Assembly (NCBI GenBank): GCA_019239825.1
Contig: JAFAZK010000156.1
Span: 3,080 to 67,079 of the forward strand
Direction of reading: 5' to 3'
Source of the DNA: Verrucomicrobiota bacterium
GTDB taxonomy: Bacteria > Verrucomicrobiota > Verrucomicrobiia > Chthoniobacterales > JAFAMB01
Length of the DNA stretch: 64,000 bases
Every line of letters begins with the position of its first letter. Position 1 is the stretch's first letter. The notes beneath the pieces are model-generated. The model did not search any database and had not been told where the DNA came from. It worked only from the letters and a program-made list of their open reading frames with translations. A program made the translations under genes and the position numbers. Shown here piece after piece: positions 24,585 through 63,879 of this stretch.

Positions 24585-25391
24585 TTACTTTTCGGACGGC
24601 GCGAGCACCACAGCGGCTTCCGTAGTTAGCATCAGGAAGGTGAAGGTCTCCTGAAAGTACAGCCTGACAGCGGTCTCGGAATGGCTCAGGTAACCGATGG
24701 AAATGTCCTGGCCGATGTGTAACGCGAAATCACCGCCGCGAGTGGTAAGTACGAAGCCTCCTTTGATGGCTGGGGCCCAAACAATCTCTCCGTCGACCAG
24801 GGGGCGGATGTGCTTCAAGACCGGATATCCGTCGTCGCTACCTCCGCCAATTGCTGTGTATGGCTCCGAGCCGAGTACGAGAGCATAGGGGCCATTGACA
24901 CCCGCGAGGCGCAATTCGCTCACGGCCTTTGCCACCGTGTCCGGATAACCCTTGATATCGGTGGGGAGGGTTAAAACCGGGTTGCTGGCGCCTTGCTGAA
25001 TACCCTGAATTTGAGCCGGCGCATAACCCTCGAAAACCGCGCCATCTTCCGCGAATGCGATTTTGCGCGCTGCGTCCTTTAATGGTGACCAGTCTGAATC
25101 GTTGGCGCCGCGTTCCACATCGTCAATAGCCGCGCGCGTGAGTTCGAACGGAACGCGGAATTCCACGATTGCCTTTACTTCGCGTTCCGCTGCTTGGATC
25201 CCATCACCCGGCGCCTCGATCTGCCGGAGGTGGCCCGTGCCCACCGCCGGGAAGTCGGAGCCTTTCGGACCCAGCACATCCACGAGGCGTCGTGCCGCCA
25301 AGTGGCGCTTAAGGGTGCGAGAGGCTTCCTCTTCGATTTGTGCCCAGGCCCCGTCCGAGATAGGGGCAAGCTCCCGATGTAGATTATTCAT
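24585..25391 (-). CDS. Family 1 encapsulin nanocompartment shell protein (linocin M18-like)
   Basis: N-terminus MNNLHRELAPISDGAWAQIEEEASRTLK and a 268-aa HK97-fold-type length. Overlaps the DyP gene by 8 nt. Confidence 0.92.
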   Translation of the reverse strand: MNNLHRELAPISDGAWAQIEEEASRTLKRHLAARRLVDVLGPKGSDFPAVGTGHLRQIEAPGDGIQAAEREVKAIVEFRVPFELTRAAIDDVERGANDSDWSPLKDAARKIAFAEDGAVFEGYAPAQIQGIQQGASNPVLTLPTDIKGYPDTVAKAVSELRLAGVNGPYALVLGSEPYTAIGGGSDDGYPVLKHIRPLVDGEIVWAPAIKGGFVLTTRGGDFALHIGQDISIGYLSHSETAVRLYFQETFTFLMLTTEAAVVLAPSEK

Positions 25392-26445
25392 GTCTTTCCT
25401 CTTTCTTCAGCGAGCCAATATTAAGTGAACCATCCGGTCGCGATGGCTGTGATTTGGAGTCGGCCTCACTCCCGTTTTCATTCGAAGTCAGGTTAGCGGT
25501 CCATGGGGCTGCTACGTCGGGCACGATGTTTTCTAAGAACGTTGCCGATGGCACAAAAAAGAGCGTGCCCGTAACCGCGCGGCTGTAGTCCAGGAGCCGG
25601 TCATAGTTCCCCGGCGGTCGACCGACAAACATGTTCACGAGCATCTGCTCGATCGTGCGTGGAGACTTAGCATAGCCGATGAAATAGGTGCCGAATTCTC
25701 CTTTGCCCACTTCGCCGAACGGCATGTTGTCACGCACGATCTCTAGCTCTTTTCCATCTTCCTCAATCGACGTCAACGCATTGTGCGCTGAGCTTGGTTT
25801 CACCGCATCGTCGAGTTCGATATCGGAGAGTTTTTTTCTACCGATAATTCTCTCTTGTTCTTCAACGGGCAGAGCGTTCCACCCCTGGAGGTCGTGAAAG
25901 TACTTCTGCACGATCACGTAGCTCCCACCAGCAAAGGCAGGATCCTCCTCGCCGATAATGGTAGCGTCGATAGCGCCTTCTTCCACCGGGTTCTCCGTCC
26001 CATCAACAAAACCGATCAAGTCGCGGTCATCGAAGTAGTTGAAGCCGTGCACCTCGTCGACCGGGGAGACTGCCCCGCTGAGCCGCGACATAATCTGGGT
26101 CGCCAGTTCGAAGCACAGGTCCATTCGTTTGGAGCGGATATGAAAGAGAATGTCGCCCGGCGTTGCGACGGCGTGGTGCCGGCCACGGATCTCACGGAAC
26201 GGGTGCAATTCTTTCGGCTTCGGTACTCCGAAGACCCGGTCCCATGCATCGGAACCAAACGCCATGACACACGACAGTTGACCTTGGAGGTCCCGGAAGC
26301 CAACGGCGCGGAGAAGAGCTGCCAGATCACCACACAGGGCCCGCACTGCGGTCTCACATTCCGGTCCCGGGTTGATGCTGACGACAAGAAAGATGGCAGC
26401 GCGCGTGAGCCCTGCGACGACGGGTTGTGGAGTAACGGATGGCAT
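25384..26445 (-). CDS. Dyp-type peroxidase, encapsulin cargo
   Basis: GFVDGTENP motif of DyP peroxidases. The C-terminal tail ...SRPDGSLNIGSLKKEERHE resembles the encapsulin cargo-loading peptide. Confidence 0.9.
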   Translation of the reverse strand: MPSVTPQPVVAGLTRAAIFLVVSINPGPECETAVRALCGDLAALLRAVGFRDLQGQLSCVMAFGSDAWDRVFGVPKPKELHPFREIRGRHHAVATPGDILFHIRSKRMDLCFELATQIMSRLSGAVSPVDEVHGFNYFDDRDLIGFVDGTENPVEEGAIDATIIGEEDPAFAGGSYVIVQKYFHDLQGWNALPVEEQERIIGRKKLSDIELDDAVKPSSAHNALTSIEEDGKELEIVRDNMPFGEVGKGEFGTYFIGYAKSPRTIEQMLVNMFVGRPPGNYDRLLDYSRAVTGTLFFVPSATFLENIVPDVAAPWTANLTSNENGSEADSKSQPSRPDGSLNIGSLKKEERHE

Positions 26446-60840: not shown

Positions 60841-61353
60841 ATGAACAGAAGAGCAGTAGTTCTAGCGGGGTTAGCGAGCCTCGCCGCGGCAGTTGCGGCT
60901 CCCCCTGTTGTACAATCGCAGACGTCCGACGAAACCGAGATTCCTGAGTTAGAACCCCTTCGCGCGCTGCTCAAAGCGCTCGATGTGGCCTTTAGCAATC
61001 AGGACCTCGCTGGAGTCATGGCTACGCTGTCCGATAATGCGGCAATCATGGGCAGCGGTCCCGGAGAAATCTGGTCTGGTACTGATGAAATCAAAGCGGC
61101 GTATCAACACTTTTTTGAGGGATTCGATAGTGGGCAACAAAGTTTTGATTACGAATTCAGTCTCGGCAAAATTGGAGCAGACTCCGGTTGGATGATGACT
61201 TCCGGAAACGTCAGCGGGACGAAGGATGGAAAAGAATTCACTTTTCCAGTTAACATCTCGCTAGTTGCCACCAAGGATGGAGGGAAGTGGCTGATCGCAG
61301 CGATGCATTTTTCGACCCTGACGGGCGACACTGAGGAGAGGGAGGAAGACTAA
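60841..61353 (+). CDS. Secreted NTF2-fold protein (SnoaL/DUF4440-like)
   Basis: ATG at 60841 gives the signal peptide MNRRAVVLAGLASLAAAVAAPPVVQS, followed by an NTF2-like core. 16 nt upstream of the repeat peptide gene. Confidence 0.65.
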   Translation: MNRRAVVLAGLASLAAAVAAPPVVQSQTSDETEIPELEPLRALLKALDVAFSNQDLAGVMATLSDNAAIMGSGPGEIWSGTDEIKAAYQHFFEGFDSGQQSFDYEFSLGKIGADSGWMMTSGNVSGTKDGKEFTFPVNISLVATKDGGKWLIAAMHFSTLTGDTEEREED

Positions 61354-61369
61354 CCTCGCTTCTATATTT

Positions 61370-61648
61370 ATGGATAATGAACCATCCTCTCAGTTAGATA
61401 GCTCCAAGCAGGAACAGGATTCGGTGAATAGGCGTCTGTTTCTGCGGAGTGTCGGGAAATGGTCGGCTGCAGCGATTGCTGCGGTTGGCTTGTGCGGTGC
61501 CTGGTTGGCAACTGAGTCTAAGGCCGGCGTTTGGATCAACCGCTGGGGACCGCGTCGTCGTGGCCGGTGGATCAATCGTTGGGGCCCGCGCGGCCGATGG
61601 ATCAATCGCTGGGGGCCTCGTCGCGGTGGGTGGGTGAATTGGTGGTAA
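61370..61648 (+). CDS. Trp/Arg-rich repeat peptide with twin-arginine-type signal (candidate RiPP precursor)
   Basis: MDNEPSSQLDSSKQEQDSVNRRLFLRSVGKWSAAAIAAVGLCGAWLATESKA, then GVWINRWGPRRRGRWINRWGPRGRWINRWGPRRGGWVNWW. Differences between repeat cores are all synonymous. Sits directly upstream of a radical SAM/SPASM gene pair. Confidence 0.7.
   Translation: MDNEPSSQLDSSKQEQDSVNRRLFLRSVGKWSAAAIAAVGLCGAWLATESKAGVWINRWGPRRRGRWINRWGPRGRWINRWGPRRGGWVNWW
61532..61630 (+). repeat. Three in-frame tandem coding repeats (36, 30 and 33 nt), each encoding WINRWGPR plus an Arg/Gly spacer
   Basis: Units at 61532-61567, 61568-61597 and 61598-61630, followed by a degenerate WVNWW tail (61631-61645). Confidence 0.9.
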
Positions 61649-61795
61649 CGGACGCAGCCCGGCGAAGCCGTAACGAAAAATCAAGCGCTGTAAACGGCGT
61701 ACCGGTGTCTGGGTGTATCGCCGTAAACCGAGCTTAATTTCCCTCTAGGATTTTCGCAAAAATCGAAGATTTGCGGACAGAGGAGGAGTGGATCT

Positions 61796-62668
61796 ATGCG
61801 CGTGTCTGAGGAAGCTTACCCTTCTTTGAGGATTATGCCTTCTGCGCTGGCAGAAACACAAGAGGAGTTGCCCTTCGTCGTTATCGTTCGGAATCGAGCC
61901 GAATTTTTTCGCTGGTTACGGAAGCCACCTCGCGCTTTGAGGTGGCTTCAGGTGGAAGGAATGTTGGCGGACTCCGAAGCTTGGGCGGAGGCGGCCCACA
62001 ACGCTTCTCACGTTCCTTTGGATGTGATGCTTTTCGATCCGGCTTCAGAATTTTCCGATCTTTACAGATTGGTAGATGTATGTGCAGCTCGGGAAGTCCG
62101 GGTGACCGTGCCCGCCGCGCCAGGTTTAGCGAAAGTGGTCAGGCTGGCGGCGGCCCTGCGACTCCCGATTCGGGTGTTGCCGGGGCAGCCGGCAGCTGAG
62201 GCGCTGGAAGAGCTGCACGACGCTCTGGAGTTCTATCTTCACGAGCCGATGGTTGAAACCCCCGTGGAGTTCTTTCACTCCTTGCTCGCAGCCATGTCCG
62301 GCGGCGATGCGAACTCGCTGTGGATGATACTCGAGGAGGACGCGGAGGCTTTCCAGCTTTTTGATGCCGACGGGCAGCCAAGATTGCCACGAGCAGCCGA
62401 TTCAGACAAGGTCATGACGGCTAGCGCGGCATTTGTTGAGACTCATCTGAACCGTCTGATAGCGGAAGGCGCCGAATGCGCCACATGTCCATGGCAACAG
62501 CAATGCCGAGGATATTTCAAATGGCCCGATCCCCTTTACTCGTGTGAGGGTATTAAGCAGCTCTTTTCCAGTATTCAGGTGGCCGGGAACGAGATTAGGA
62601 AAGAATTGGCCGATATCGCCACAGCGGATGCGGAAAGTATCTCAAGTCCCGGAGGGGATGCCATATGA
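61796..62668 (+). CDS. Hypothetical protein with C-terminal four-Cys cluster (partner of the rSAM enzyme)
   Basis: A strong AGGAGG (61781-61786) precedes the ATG. 290 aa with no CxxxCxxC motif. C-terminal CATCPWQQQCRGYFKWPDPLYSC (C-x2-C-x5-C-x12-C). The stop overlaps the downstream start (ATGA). Confidence 0.7.
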   Translation: MRVSEEAYPSLRIMPSALAETQEELPFVVIVRNRAEFFRWLRKPPRALRWLQVEGMLADSEAWAEAAHNASHVPLDVMLFDPASEFSDLYRLVDVCAAREVRVTVPAAPGLAKVVRLAAALRLPIRVLPGQPAAEALEELHDALEFYLHEPMVETPVEFFHSLLAAMSGGDANSLWMILEEDAEAFQLFDADGQPRLPRAADSDKVMTASAAFVETHLNRLIAEGAECATCPWQQQCRGYFKWPDPLYSCEGIKQLFSSIQVAGNEIRKELADIATADAESISSPGGDAI

Positions 62669-63879
62669 GCGAACGAGTCTTCAGCGTTATTCTTCTTCCT
62701 ACTTCGGACTGCAATGTAGCCTGTGACTACTGTTTTGAACACAAAGAACCGCATCGGCTTTCGCCAGCCTTGCTCCCGTTGCTGACGAAGCGCTTGCTCG
62801 ATCATCTTGAGAACGAAGACATAGAAGAATGCGAAATCTATTGGCAGGGCGGAGAGGCTATGGTCATGGGTCCCGCTTGGTTCGAGAATGCCGGCGAGGT
62901 AATGAACCGCGCAGCGGCCCAGCGAGGACGGCAGTTTGTACACTACTTACAAACCAATCTGATCGGTTACTCACAAGCTTGGAATGGCGTGATTCACAAA
63001 ATGTTCGACGGTTCGCTGGGGACCTCGATGGACTACCCGAATCTGTACCGGAAACTTTTCAAAGGCGGGGCCGCGGCATACACCGAACTCTGGACCAGGA
63101 AACTTCGTGAGGCGAAAGCTGCGGGCATTGGAGTGGGCGTGATCGCCGTGCTGCATCAAGGGAGTCTCGAAGCCGGTCCGGAAAGGTTCTATCGATATTT
63201 TACGGGGGACCTCGGGCTAACCGACTTCCAGGTTAACACGCCGTTTCCGGGTGGTCCCGCAAAGGAGGTTGAGGGCGGTTTCCAGCTGGATTCTAGCGAA
63301 TTAGCTGACTTTATGGTTGGGCTCTTCGATATCTGGATGGCCGAAGGGTACTCGTCCGGGGTGTCGGTGGGTCCATTTGATGCCTTGATTGATCACTTCA
63401 CCGGCAAACAAGCGCGCTTACCCTGTATCTGGAAAGAGAACTGCTCCAACCAGTTCATCTCGGTTGACGCAAAAGGGACAGTCGCTCAATGCGACTGCTG
63501 GGTTACCAGTTACCCGGAGTATTTCTTCGGAAATATTTTCCAGGACGCCGACCTGACGCGAATGCTTAAAACAAGTCGGGCACGGCGCGATTTTGTCGAA
63601 CGCCCGAAGCGTCTAGTTGAGGATGAAGATTGCCTTTCCTGCCGCTACCTTTCGATCTGCCATGGCGGGTGCCCGGTGCGGACCTACAGCGCCCTAGGTA
63701 CAATGATGGCAAAGGATCCCTATTGCGAAGTTTACAAGGCGGTTTTCGCCTGCGCCGAAACGCATGCCCGCGAGATTCTGCGCGCTCGTGCCGCCCCGAT
63801 CGTAGCGCCTAGACAGCGTCATGAAGTAGTCTTGAACCATGGCCCTCGACAAACTGAGCGGACGGCATCGGGATCATAA
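62665..63879 (+). CDS. Radical SAM/SPASM domain protein (anSME-like peptide-modifying maturase candidate)
   Basis: CNVACDYC (CxxxCxxC) at residues 16-23, WQGGEAM SAM-binding GGE motif, and a C-terminal SPASM signature CLSCRYLSICHGGC (C-x2-C-x5-C-x3-C) with upstream auxiliary cysteines. Confidence 0.88.
   Translation: MSERVFSVILLPTSDCNVACDYCFEHKEPHRLSPALLPLLTKRLLDHLENEDIEECEIYWQGGEAMVMGPAWFENAGEVMNRAAAQRGRQFVHYLQTNLIGYSQAWNGVIHKMFDGSLGTSMDYPNLYRKLFKGGAAAYTELWTRKLREAKAAGIGVGVIAVLHQGSLEAGPERFYRYFTGDLGLTDFQVNTPFPGGPAKEVEGGFQLDSSELADFMVGLFDIWMAEGYSSGVSVGPFDALIDHFTGKQARLPCIWKENCSNQFISVDAKGTVAQCDCWVTSYPEYFFGNIFQDADLTRMLKTSRARRDFVERPKRLVEDEDCLSCRYLSICHGGCPVRTYSALGTMMAKDPYCEVYKAVFACAETHAREILRARAAPIVAPRQRHEVVLNHGPRQTERTASGS

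What the first reader, a model, noticed from the sequence alone, without database searches (positions are those of the whole stretch)
61370..61648. Repeat peptide combines a twin-arginine-type signal with a 40-residue core of 9 Trp and 11 Arg and no acidic residues
The N-terminal half has an acidic/polar n-region, the motif SVNRRLFLRS (close to the Tat consensus S/T-R-R-x-F-L-K), a hydrophobic h-region and a possible cleavage site SKA/GV. The predicted mature part is GVWINRWGPRRRGRWINRWGPRGRWINRWGPRRGGWVNWW. By my count it has 9 Trp, 11 Arg and no Asp or Glu, the composition of Trp/Arg-rich membrane-active antimicrobial peptides. Tat export carries substrates folded in the cytoplasm. That would fit a peptide crosslinked by a cytoplasmic Fe-S enzyme before export. 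A leader that is an export signal rather than a classical RiPP leader is unusual.
Basis: partly seen in the sequence, partly recalled or inferred. Interest (0 to 1): 0.85.

Follow-up and report, generated by a model that had tools for sequence, protein, structure and literature searches.

The report
Tat-signal peptide precursor for radical-SAM crosslinking
This small gene is real and belongs to a large, unnamed family of soil-bacterial peptides that combine a twin-arginine-type export signal with repeated Trp-x-Asn units. The gene usually sits next to a radical-SAM enzyme, so the peptide is probably crosslinked inside the cell and then exported, a design not yet described for this enzyme class.

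Summary
ORF 61370..61648 encodes 92 aa, and its last 40 residues hold 9 Trp, 11 Arg and no Asp/Glu. It is a real gene: dN/dS is 0.09-0.25, and a profile search found 234 clusters of relatives, mostly in Verrucomicrobiota.

Across 229 distinct members the leader is almost invariant:
- an acidic n-region;
- R-R-x-F-L (R 94/96 %, F 92 %, L 97 %) at a fixed distance from G-K-W-S;
- about 19 uncharged Ala/Gly-rich residues;
- an AxA-type cleavage site in 225 of 229.

Tat-signal models are the only models that recur on the leaders. Some members pass the curated TIGR01409 cut-off, but the window's copy does not.

The conserved core unit is G-W-[IV]-N-R, not Arg richness. This is the Trp-x-Asn motif that known radical-SAM cyclophane synthases crosslink.

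About 34 of 55 loci keep the same four genes in order: an exported NTF2-like protein, the peptide, an orphan 290-aa protein, and an rSAM/SPASM enzyme. That enzyme falls below every curated family cut-off.

Best reading: a Tat-type signal serves as the leader of a triceptide-like RiPP. This is a new variant of a known kind. The chemistry, the export route and the function are inferred. The antimicrobial reading is untested.

The parts
60841..61353 (+). Exported NTF2/SnoaL-like protein. The likely start is the ATG giving MNRRAVVLAGLASLAAAVAAPP...; the mechanical ORF starts at GTG 60790. It is the constant upstream partner of the peptide gene.
   Evidence: Pfam SnoaL_3 2.8e-13 and DUF4440. The closest solved structure is a 'ketosteroid isomerase-like protein', 3d9r, E 0.0016. 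Orthologues lie 13-24 nt upstream of the peptide gene in most loci, including loci without an rSAM. All carry an N-terminal signal peptide (MNRREAI..AxA; MTRKEAI..; MKKQ.. in Gammaproteobacteria), so the twin Arg is not conserved there.
61370..61648 (+). Precursor peptide gene, 92 aa plus stop.
   Evidence: dN/dS 0.09-0.25. The gene is called in the ENA and NCBI assemblies.
61370..61429 (+). Acidic n-region, residues 1-20 (MDNEPSSQLDSSKQEQDSVN).
   Evidence: The N-terminus MNxEPS is conserved, which supports the ATG start. In the family the n-region has a median length of 20 aa and a median net charge of -4; it is negative in 96 % of members.
61430..61465 (+). Twin-arginine motif plus family-specific extension, residues 21-32 (RRLFLRSVGKWS).
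   Evidence: R 94 %, R 96 %, F 92 %, L 97 %, G 82 %, K 89 % at fixed spacing in 229 distinct members.
61460..61525 (+). h-region (WSAAAIAAVGLCGAWLAT) and c-region (ESKA). Predicted signal-peptidase I site after Ala52, between 61525 and 61526.
   Evidence: The uncharged run has a median of 19 residues. Composition is Ala 30 %, Gly 15 %, Leu 6 %. Small residues occupy -3/-1 in 225 of 229 members. Three relatives have a lipobox-like LTSC instead.
61526..61645 (+). Predicted core, residues 53-92. Four W-[IV]-N units at 61532-61540, 61568-61576, 61598-61606 and 61631-61639, separated by GPRR(R)G(R) linkers, ending WVNWW.
   Evidence: W and N of each unit are invariant in alignment A1. Family-wide, the unit is G/S/A-W-[IV]-N-[RG], and 76 % of all Trp lie in WxN.
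61796..62668 (+). Orphan 290-aa partner protein ('p290'). Its stop overlaps the rSAM start (ATGA).
   Evidence: No Pfam or NCBIfam family. 763 homologues. Present with the rSAM in about 34 of 55 loci. AF2 predicts an N-terminal beta/alpha repeat region (pLDDT 85-90 for residues 30-120) and a low-confidence C-terminus. Four invariant Cys (C228, C231, C237, C250) align with the CxxCx5C...C of the rSAM's SPASM domain (hhalign E 0.013, probability only 3.4 %).
62665..63879 (+). Radical SAM/SPASM enzyme, 404 aa. CNVACDYC at residues 16-23 (62710-62733). No signal peptide.
   Evidence: TIGR04085 SPASM domain 56 bits, above its cut-off of 27. Best full-length models are anSME 142.5, DynA 136.8, DarW 122.3, DarE 105.7 and GrrM/OscB 80.5 bits, all below cut-off. 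PDB: anSME 4k36 at 4e-22, triceptide synthase ChlB 9gm3 at 2e-11. 1059 homologues, named only 'radical SAM protein' or 'SPASM domain-containing protein'.

Best explanation
The ORF encodes the precursor of a ribosomally made, radical-SAM-modified repeat peptide whose 'leader' is a twin-arginine (Tat)-type signal peptide.

Proposed sequence of events:
(1) The 92-aa precursor is made in the cytoplasm.
(2) The cytoplasmic rSAM/SPASM enzyme (62665..63879), probably together with the orphan 290-aa protein translationally coupled to it, modifies each G-W-[IV]-N-R unit. The most likely product is a three-residue cyclophane: a C-C bond from the Trp indole to the beta-carbon of the Asn two residues on, as OscB, XncB and DynA do.
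(3) The extended, strongly conserved signal (RRxFL...GKWS) serves both as the recognition handle and as the export signal. Because Tat export is post-translational, modification can finish first.
(4) The small, hydrophilic, cationic cargo crosses the inner membrane, and signal peptidase I cuts after SKA.
(5) In the periplasm the roughly 40-residue product meets the co-encoded exported NTF2-like protein, which may act as binding partner, carrier or immunity factor. In many relatives a dedicated RND/MFP pump lies next to the module and could carry the product across the outer membrane.

Shown here: the gene is real, the family architecture, the gene linkage, and Tat-like sequence features. Inferred: the crosslink type, Tat dependence, cleavage, and the roles of p290, the NTF2-like protein and the RND pump. 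The biological function is unknown and antimicrobial activity is only one possibility.
For: - Real gene and large family.
- Leader conservation: R-R-x-F-L and G-K-W-S are nearly invariant at fixed spacing in 229 members. The uncharged h-region has a median of 19 residues and is Ala/Gly-rich and Leu-poor. An AxA-type site is present in 225 of 229.
- Of all NCBIfam and Pfam models, only Tat-signal models recur on 45 diverse leaders: TIGR02811 in 19, TIGR01409 in 14, PF10518 in 13. P0260, P0303, P0277 and P0209 pass the TIGR01409 cut-off.
- Three relatives swap the AxA site for a lipobox-like LTSC, as expected of a true export signal.
- The co-encoded NTF2-like partner is itself exported, but its twin Arg is not conserved. 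The RR conservation is therefore specific to the peptide.
- Linkage to the rSAM holds in about 34 of 55 loci in Verrucomicrobiota, Burkholderiales and Gammaproteobacteria, in more than one gene order (L046 has the rSAM upstream).
- The rSAM has a full SPASM domain and no signal peptide. Its nearest characterised relatives are anSME, DynA, DarE, OscB and ChlB.
- OscB and XncB crosslink Trp to Asn C-beta in W-x-N (PMC11002830). The repeat region weakly matches the GrrA/OscA1 model.
- Tat tolerates small, unstructured, hydrophilic cargo of up to about 100-120 aa (PMC6708511).
- Tat signals can double as chaperone-binding sites (PMC3712460, title and abstract).
Against: - The window's own leader does not reach the curated cut-offs of TIGR01409 or PF10518 (PF10518 6.9 vs 22.7 bits).
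- No SignalP, TatP or PRED-TAT run was possible.
- The presence of tatABC in these genomes was not checked.
- The strongly acidic n-region (net about -4) and the invariant GKWS are not typical of Tat signals. They could mean the segment is mainly an enzyme-recognition leader.
- The rSAM scores below the cut-off of every cyclophane-forming family, and its best hit is the sulfatase maturase, so the chemistry is argued by analogy only.
- About 17 loci have the NTF2-like gene and the peptide without an rSAM within 8 kb. Modification may therefore not be obligatory, or it may work in trans.
- No protease or transporter lies in the window's own cluster.
- The p290 model is of low confidence (pLDDT 60), and its SPASM-like similarity is statistically weak.
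Confidence: 0.55

Rival explanations
1. The export signal is real but uses Sec, or it is an uncleaved signal anchor. The twin arginine with F-L is conserved because the maturase or p290 recognises it, not because of the Tat translocase. The peptide would then resemble the bufferin precursors, which carry Sec signals.
For: The window's leader misses the Tat HMM cut-offs. The h-region's best 12-residue window (Kyte-Doolittle 2.0-2.1) is hydrophobic enough for Sec. The precedents for signal-bearing RiPPs are all Sec or SPII (PMC12452194, PMC13056109). The invariant GKWS goes beyond what Tat needs.
Against: RR is kept in 94-96 % of 229 members, with F-L at +3/+4. That is the Tat consensus and is not needed for Sec. 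The co-encoded Sec-like partner protein does not conserve RR. Tat models are the only recurrent hits, and some members pass the curated cut-off. The h-region is Ala/Gly-rich and Leu-poor, and a basic residue is often present in the c-region (121 of 229).
Confidence: 0.2
2. The N-terminal half is a conventional RiPP leader that stays cytoplasmic. It is bound by the maturase and removed by a protease, and the product leaves through a transporter such as the RND pump. The Tat resemblance is coincidental.
For: The leader is conserved far beyond a normal signal peptide. The acidic n-region is leader-like. RND/MFP genes are adjacent in many loci.
Against: A 19-residue uncharged stretch followed by AxA, lipobox variants, and an exported partner protein encoded 16 nt upstream all point to membrane targeting. 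No leader protease or ABC/peptidase-type exporter is conserved in the cluster. RND pumps take substrates from the periplasm or inner-membrane outer leaflet, not from the cytoplasm (general knowledge of AcrB-type pumps).
Confidence: 0.08
3. The peptide is an unmodified exported Gly/Trp/Arg-rich repeat protein that works with the NTF2-like protein. The neighbouring rSAM and p290 act on something else.
For: About 17 loci carry only the NTF2-like gene and the peptide. The rSAM's best model is the sulfatase maturase.
Against: The rSAM is adjacent in about 34 of 55 loci across phyla and in different gene orders, including a minimal rSAM-plus-peptide pair in L046. Many rSAM-less loci are extra copies in genomes that also hold a full cluster. 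There is no sulfatase nearby and no Cys/Ser-x-Pro-x-Arg motif in the core. The invariant W-x-N is a known rSAM crosslinking motif.
Confidence: 0.07
4. One reading: the mature product is a Trp/Arg-rich, membrane-active antimicrobial peptide.
For: The window's core has 9 W, 11 R and no acidic residue. Family cores have a median net charge of +7. A possible immunity-like partner and efflux pumps lie nearby.
Against: Arg-rich linkers occur in only 44 of 215 cores; most are poly-Gly. There is no amphipathic or hydrophobic segment. Multiple paralogous copies per genome and near-universal pairing with a periplasmic NTF2-like protein fit a periplasmic or envelope role equally well. No activity data exist.
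Confidence: 0.2

Closest known systems
Triceptides of the GrrA/OscA1 - GrrM/OscB type (TIGR04260 / TIGR04261; three-residue cyclophane-forming rSAM enzymes)
   Same: A Gly-rich precursor with many repeats of Trp-x-Asn, next to an rSAM/SPASM maturase. OscB links Trp-C7 to Asn/Asp C-beta (PMC11002830). The repeat region gives weak hits to TIGR04260.
   Different: The leader is unrelated: TIGR04260 matches only profile positions 63-118, and here the leader is a Tat-type signal. The precursor and the maturase both score below the curated cut-offs (at most 28.9 vs 31 bits; 80.5 vs 310 bits). The extra conserved genes (p290, the exported NTF2-like protein) have no named family in NCBIfam or Pfam. 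The host range is Verrucomicrobiota rather than Cyanobacteria.
Dynobactin and darobactin maturases DynA / DarE / DarW
   Same: These are the second- to fourth-best models for the rSAM (136.8, 122.3 and 105.7 bits). To my recollection, not checked here, dynobactin's first ring is also a Trp-to-Asn(i+2) C-C bond. The producers are diderm bacteria.
   Different: Scores are far below the cut-offs (450-650). Those precursors have a single short core with a classical leader and an ABC-type exporter. Here there are 4-10 tandem units and an export-signal leader.
Signal-peptide-bearing RiPP precursors: bufferins, oxazolins, chryseobasin-like DAG-RiPPs
   Same: The precursor carries a general-secretion signal in place of, or as part of, the leader. 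A cytoplasmic enzyme must act before export, and a partner protein is suspected of masking the signal (PMC12452194, PMC13056109).
   Different: Those use Sec or lipoprotein (SPII) signals and MNIO (DUF692) enzymes acting on Cys. Here the signal is Tat-type and the enzyme is an rSAM/SPASM acting, presumably, on Trp/Asn.
Anaerobic sulfatase-maturating enzyme (anSME) and its exported sulfatase substrates
   Same: Best HMM and best PDB relative of the rSAM. An rSAM/SPASM enzyme that modifies a signal-bearing polypeptide in the cytoplasm before export (general knowledge of anSME biology).
   Different: 142.5 bits vs a 349 cut-off. There is no sulfatase and no Cys/Ser-x-Pro-x-Arg target. The substrate is a small repeat peptide.
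Tat substrates with signal-binding chaperones (TorA/TorD, DmsA/DmsD, NapA/NapD)
   Same: A twin-arginine signal whose sequence does double duty as the binding site for a cytoplasmic maturation factor that delays export (PMC3712460).
   Different: Those cargos are large cofactor enzymes and the chaperones belong to known families. Here the cargo is a 40-residue peptide, and the candidate signal-binding factor (p290) is an orphan with a degenerate SPASM-like Cys motif. This role is purely inferred.

Membership tests
Twin-arginine (Tat) signal peptides | Z-R-R-x-Phi-Phi motif near the N-terminus (consensus S/T-R-R-x-F-L-K) | tested here: met
   N-R-R-L-F-L-R at residues 20-26. R 94 %, R 96 %, F 92 %, L 97 % in 229 relatives.
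Twin-arginine (Tat) signal peptides | Moderately hydrophobic uncharged h-region followed by a c-region with small residues at -3/-1 | tested here: met
   WSAAAIAAVGLCGAWLAT (18 uncharged residues), then E-S-K-A|G. In the family the median run is 19 residues, with Ala 30 %, Gly 15 %, Leu 6 %. An AxA-type site is present in 225 of 229.
Twin-arginine (Tat) signal peptides | Score above the curated cut-off of TIGR01409 (16.7 bits) or PF10518 (22.7 bits) | tested here: inconclusive
   The window's leader gives no TIGR01409 hit and PF10518 6.9 bits. Relatives P0260 (22.9), P0209 (20.4), P0303 (19.3) and P0277 (18.2) pass TIGR01409. 14 of 45 leaders hit it at E <= 10.
Twin-arginine (Tat) signal peptides | Export depends on TatABC and on the RR pair | not testable with these tools
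   Needs reporter fusions in tat/sec mutants. The presence of tatC in the host genomes was not checked.
Triceptides, GrrA/OscA1 precursors (TIGR04260) | Repeated aromatic-x-X (here Trp-x-Asn) units in a Gly-rich C-terminal half | tested here: met
   Four W-[IV]-N units in the window. Median of 5 per core in 215 relatives.
Triceptides, GrrA/OscA1 precursors (TIGR04260) | Full-length match to the family model at or above 31 bits | tested here: not met
   No hit at E <= 1 for the window. The best relative, P0065, scores 28.9 bits. All matches cover only profile positions 63-118, the repeats.
Triceptide maturases (GrrM/OscB TIGR04261; also XyeB, FxsB, YhhB, AmcB) | Score above the curated family cut-off | tested here: not met
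   80.5 vs 310; 47.9 vs 450; 57.6 vs 370; 71.7 vs 445; 54.9 vs 425. The generic SPASM domain TIGR04085 is met (56.3 vs 27).
Triceptides | C(sp2)-C(sp3) bond from the aromatic ring to C-beta of residue i+2 | not testable with these tools
   Needs MS/NMR of the co-expressed product.
Darobactin / dynobactin systems | DarE or DynA equivalog score; single short core with a classical leader | tested here: not met
   DynA 136.8 vs 450; DarE 105.7 vs 650. The core is a four-fold repeat with a signal-type leader.
Anaerobic sulfatase maturase system | TIGR03942 score of at least 349; sulfatase substrate with Cys/Ser-x-Pro-x-Arg | tested here: not met
   142.5 bits. There is no Cys or Ser in the core. 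No sulfatase gene lies within 10 kb.
MNIO-modified signal-peptide RiPPs (bufferins and relatives) | MNIO (DUF692) enzyme and Cys-containing core | tested here: not met
   None of the four cluster proteins is an MNIO enzyme, and no DUF692 appears among the Pfam hits on record for the called genes within 10 kb. The core has no Cys. Only the principle of an export signal on the precursor is shared.
Trp/Arg-rich cationic antimicrobial peptides | Demonstrated membrane-active antimicrobial activity | not testable with these tools
   Only the composition is shared. Arg-rich linkers occur in only 44 of 215 family cores.

The most novel reading that the evidence does not exclude
This would be a RiPP class in which a Tat signal peptide is itself the leader. 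The orphan 290-aa protein, a degenerate rSAM/SPASM relative that keeps only one cluster-type Cys set, holds the twin-arginine signal in the way a redox-enzyme maturation chaperone does. It releases the signal to the Tat translocase only after the radical-SAM enzyme has installed a Trp-Asn cyclophane in every repeat. In the periplasm an NTF2-like protein receives the product, and a dedicated RND pump exports it across the outer membrane. That would be a complete two-step secretion route for a crosslinked peptide.
Probability: 0.25. Interest if true: 0.8.

Novelty: new variant of a known kind. Interest (0 to 1): 0.64.

Why it matters
RiPP precursors normally carry a dedicated leader that is cut off by a pathway protease, and the product leaves through a pathway transporter. 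Using a general export signal as the leader was recognised only recently, and only for MNIO enzymes with Sec or lipoprotein signals.

A Tat-type signal on a radical-SAM substrate would extend that logic in two ways. It would reach a second major enzyme class. It would also involve the one export pathway that is strictly post-translational and already known to be gated by signal-binding chaperones. This makes a general question directly testable: how does a cell stop a signal-bearing peptide from leaving before it is modified?

In practical terms, the family is large (hundreds of sequence clusters, all annotated 'hypothetical') and common in soil Verrucomicrobiota. It occurs in cultured strains (Chthoniobacter flavus Ellin428, Verrucomicrobium sp. 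BvORR034). It comes with two uncharacterised partner proteins. It is therefore a tractable source of new poly-cyclophane peptides and possibly of a new rSAM accessory protein.

Tried and rejected
- Internal GTG start at residue 18, which would give a short canonical n-region. Rejected, because the N-terminus MNxEPS... is conserved across the family.
- Terminator or attenuator after the peptide gene. Nothing convincing: the fold z-score is +0.41, and no terminator-like site lies between 61649 and 61795.
- p290 as a known family. There are no Pfam, NCBIfam or PDB sequence hits. The fold search gave only weak TIM-barrel-like matches (best E 3.8e-3, TM 0.27-0.36; anSME at rank 26). This suggests, but does not establish, an rSAM-like half-barrel.
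- Apparent p290-rSAM fusion ORFs in L052 and L053. These are artefacts of long open frames in GC-rich DNA; the genes are separate and overlap slightly.
- Defence-system models (PADLOC). Only generic rSAM (viperin) noise.
- Search for other Tat-like N-termini in the window. Only the peptide and its NTF2-like neighbour match a crude RR pattern.
- Ten mid-sized window ORFs were scanned for TatC. None matched.
- Literature searches combining twin-arginine, RiPP, radical SAM, cyclophane and Verrucomicrobia returned no description of this family. The Nat. Chem. 2020 triceptide paper and the Haft & Basu 2011 paper are not held, so the leaders of GrrA/OscA and of TIGR04117 could not be read directly.
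- The RND group next to L001, L008, L013 and L018 is unrelated (22 % identity) to the main co-occurring subfamily and is treated as coincidental.
Full report
THE OBSERVATION

Residues 53-92 (GVWINRWGPRRRGRWINRWGPRGRWINRWGPRRGGWVNWW) contain 9 Trp, 11 Arg, 8 Gly and 4 Asn, and no Asp, Glu or Lys. There are four W-[IV]-N units, which appear at DNA level as a 30-nt tandem array at 61532..61626.

The gene is real. Against five orthologues the frame shows dN/dS of 0.09-0.25. The same 92-aa protein is deposited as MBV9875669.1, 'hypothetical protein', from a Verrucomicrobia MAG, and it is called in an ENA assembly of the same contig. The antisense ORFs across the repeat are by-products of its GC-rich codons.

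THE FAMILY

A word-indexed search found 69 relatives. A scan of one genome per species found 53 loci. These are mostly Verrucomicrobiota (Chthoniobacterales, Terrimicrobiaceae), with a few Gammaproteobacteria (Candidatus Contendobacter) and one Burkholderiales. They include the cultured strains Chthoniobacter flavus Ellin428 and Verrucomicrobium sp. BvORR034, plus a MAG assigned to Prosthecobacter debontii. An exhaustive profile search of 1.84 billion representatives found 234 clusters at E <= 1e-3. All named members are 'hypothetical protein'.

THE LEADER

In 229 distinct members, aligned on the W of G-K-W-S, the upstream positions are:
- R 94 % (K 3 %), R 96 %, x, F 92 %, L 97 %;
- then [RQ]-[SG]-[LMI]-G (82 %)-K (89 %)-W-S-[GA]-A-[AV]-I.

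Before the twin arginine lies an n-region with a median length of 20 residues. It is acidic: median net charge -4, negative in 96 % of members. The N-terminus (M-N-x-E-P-S) is conserved, which supports the ATG at 61370 over an internal GTG.

After the Lys comes an uncharged run with a median of 19 residues. It is Ala 30 %, Gly 15 % and Leu only 6 %. Next comes a (A/P)-P-E-x-x-A-G segment that offers small residues at -3/-1 in 225 of 229 members. In the window this is S-K-A|G.

Three relatives (L019, L021, L025) have a lipobox-like L-T-S-C in place of this site. That swap makes sense only if the segment is a genuine export signal.

When 45 diverse leaders were scanned alone against NCBIfam and Pfam, the only recurrent matches were Tat-signal models:
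- TIGR02811 in 19;
- TIGR01409 in 14;
- PF10518 in 13;
- the Rieske Tat-signal model in 4.

Four of ten further relatives pass the curated TIGR01409 cut-off of 16.7 bits, scoring 18.2-22.9. The window's own leader does not reach it. For this particular copy the Tat assignment therefore rests on the family pattern, not on a model score.

The NTF2-like protein encoded just upstream also has a signal peptide, but its twin Arg is not conserved (MNRREAI..., MTRKEAI..., and MKKQ... in Gammaproteobacteria). The RR conservation is therefore specific to the peptide. It is not a habit of these genomes.

THE CORE

Arg richness is not the conserved feature. Over 215 cores the composition is Gly 34 %, Arg 16 %, Trp 14 %, Asn 12 %, Lys 0.1 % and Asp+Glu 0.3 %. 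The unit is [G/S/A]-W-[I 44 % / V 34 %]-N-[R 66 % / G 23 %], with a median of five units per core, and 76 % of all Trp lie in W-x-N. Only 44 of 215 cores have at least 25 % Arg; the window belongs to this sub-clade with GPRR(R)G linkers. Most others have poly-Gly linkers.

W-x-N is the motif that the cyclophane-forming rSAM enzymes OscB and XncB crosslink, joining the Trp ring to Asn C-beta (PMC11002830). To my recollection, not checked here, the first ring of dynobactin is made the same way.

The repeat region weakly matches the GrrA/OscA1 precursor model TIGR04260. The match covers only profile positions 63-118 and always scores below the 31-bit cut-off; the best is 28.9. The leader is unrelated to that family.

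GENE NEIGHBOURHOOD

The order NTF2/SnoaL-like, peptide, 290-aa protein, rSAM/SPASM is kept in about 34 of 55 loci. The NTF2-like gene ends 13-24 nt before the peptide gene (16 nt in the window). The stop of the 290-aa gene overlaps the rSAM start.

About 17 loci have only the NTF2-like gene and the peptide. Many of these are extra copies in genomes that also hold a full cluster, for example L006 with L020, and L012 with L032 and L037. A Contendobacter locus (L046) has a minimal arrangement: the rSAM (52 % identity) lies directly upstream of a peptide with W-[Y/G/H]-N-[R/G] repeats, with no 290-aa or NTF2-like gene.

The rSAM has the CxxxCxxC motif, a full SPASM domain and no signal peptide. 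Its best models are anSME (142.5 bits), DynA (136.8), DarW (122.3), DarE (105.7) and GrrM/OscB (80.5), all far below their cut-offs. The nearest solved structures are anSME (4e-22) and the triceptide synthase ChlB (2e-11). Its 1059 relatives carry only generic names.

The 290-aa protein has 763 relatives and no family in Pfam, NCBIfam or the PDB. An AF2 model (mean pLDDT 60) shows a confident beta/alpha repeat region at residues 30-120 and a poorly defined C-terminus. Fold matches are weak and TIM-barrel-like, with anSME at rank 26. Its four invariant Cys (C228, C231, C237, C250) align with the CxxCx5C...C of the rSAM's SPASM domain (hhalign E 0.013, probability only 3.4 %). From my recollection of the anSME structure, these are the auxiliary-cluster-II ligands. 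This is suggestive, not proven.

One RND/MFP pump subfamily lies next to the module in 11 loci. Its members share 43-51 % identity across Verrucomicrobiota and Gammaproteobacteria. It occurs in three different arrangements: divergent upstream, directly downstream on the same strand, and a few genes downstream. The window's own cluster has no such pump within 10 kb.

MECHANISM PROPOSED

The precursor is made in the cytoplasm. The rSAM, probably with the 290-aa protein, crosslinks each G-W-[IV]-N-R unit, most likely as a Trp-to-Asn(i+2) cyclophane. The extended signal acts both as the recognition handle and as the export signal.

Tat export is post-translational, and it tolerates small, unstructured, hydrophilic cargo of up to 100-120 residues (PMC6708511). 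A 40-residue Gly/Arg/Trp core is therefore a plausible cargo. Tat signals are also known to double as binding sites for maturation chaperones that delay export (PMC3712460, title and abstract). That gives a rationale for the unusually conserved leader and a candidate role for the 290-aa protein.

After cleavage at SKA|G, the product would meet the exported NTF2-like protein. In many relatives it could then be taken across the outer membrane by the RND pump.

Established here: the gene, the family architecture, the linkage, and the Tat-like sequence features. Inferred: the bond type, Tat dependence, the cleavage site, and every accessory role. My confidences for the separate steps:
- real gene: 0.97
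- rSAM substrate: 0.85
- export signal: 0.85
- Tat rather than Sec: 0.7
- Trp-Asn cyclophane: 0.5
- antimicrobial function: 0.2

COMPARISON WITH KNOWN SYSTEMS

It works most like a triceptide of the GrrA/OscA-OscB kind. It fails the membership tests for that family, for both precursor and maturase, and likewise for the DarE/DynA and anSME families.

The use of a general export signal on a RiPP precursor has precedents only among MNIO-modified peptides with Sec or lipoprotein signals. [quoted passage not shown] Full-text searches combining twin-arginine with RiPP, radical SAM, SPASM, cyclophane or Verrucomicrobia found no description of this family. Two key subscription papers could not be read, so prior mention cannot be fully excluded.

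VERDICT

The Tat-type signal and the link to the Fe-S enzyme hold up at family level. The 'Trp/Arg antimicrobial peptide' reading is a property of one sub-clade and is untested. The more telling features are the invariant W-x-N units, the exported NTF2-like partner and the orphan 290-aa protein.

I rate it a new variant of a known kind. The kind is rSAM-crosslinked repeat peptides. What is new is the Tat-type signal as leader and the new accessory proteins. The family is large, unannotated and experimentally accessible.

Noticed in passing
window 61796..62668 (+): The orphan 290-aa protein has no Pfam, NCBIfam or PDB relative but 763 homologues. Its four invariant Cys (CxxCx5C...C) align with part of the SPASM domain of the adjacent rSAM. 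This suggests a degenerate rSAM/SPASM paralogue lacking the SAM cluster.
   Followed up: partly
window 60841..61353 (+); loci L001-L055: An exported NTF2/SnoaL-like protein is encoded 13-24 nt upstream of the peptide gene in most loci, even where no rSAM is nearby. It is the peptide's tightest genomic partner, and its role is unknown.
   Followed up: partly
L002, L026, L030, L031, L033, L034, L038, L041, L043, L047, L051: One RND/MFP efflux subfamily lies next to the module in three different gene arrangements. Its members share 43-51 % identity across Verrucomicrobiota and Gammaproteobacteria. It is a possible outer-membrane export or self-protection step. It is absent from the window's own cluster.
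   Followed up: partly
L019 1160..1471, L021 8001..8312, L025 8001..8312: Three family members replace the AxA cleavage region with a lipobox-like L-T-S-C directly before the first W-I-N-R unit. These may be lipoprotein versions of the peptide.
   Followed up: no
L046 2452..4232: A Contendobacter locus has a minimal arrangement: the rSAM lies immediately upstream of a 157-aa peptide with W-[Y/G/H]-N-[R/G] repeats and the same RRQFL..GKWS leader, with no 290-aa or NTF2-like gene.
   Followed up: partly
leaders in alignment A4: Seven of 45 leaders weakly match the N-terminal half of TIGR04117 (Cys-Xaa-Xaa-Xaa repeat radical SAM target protein; best E 0.011). That older rSAM-target family may therefore carry a similar signal-like leader.
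   Followed up: no
family cores (215 sequences): The basic residues are almost exclusively Arg (16 %), with Lys at 0.1 %. Acidic residues are nearly absent in the core, while the n-region of the leader is strongly acidic (median net charge -4). This may be charge balancing of the precursor.
   Followed up: no
window 61505..61525: The window's peptide lacks the conserved Ala-Pro of the c-region (LAT--ESKA versus LATAPESKA in the closest relatives). The 92-aa forms recur in several metagenomes, so this is a natural variant, not an assembly error.
   Followed up: partly
window 24585..26445 (-): An encapsulin shell protein (Linocin_M18, E 1e-94) at 24585..25391 overlaps by 8 nt the end of a 353-aa ORF at 25384..26445 on the same strand. 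That ORF is a likely cargo protein and was not examined.
   Followed up: no
window 61394..61684 (-) and 61390..61605 (-): Long antisense ORFs (96 and 71 aa) run across the peptide gene. They are side-effects of the GC-rich repeat, and the sense frame is the one under purifying selection.
   Followed up: yes
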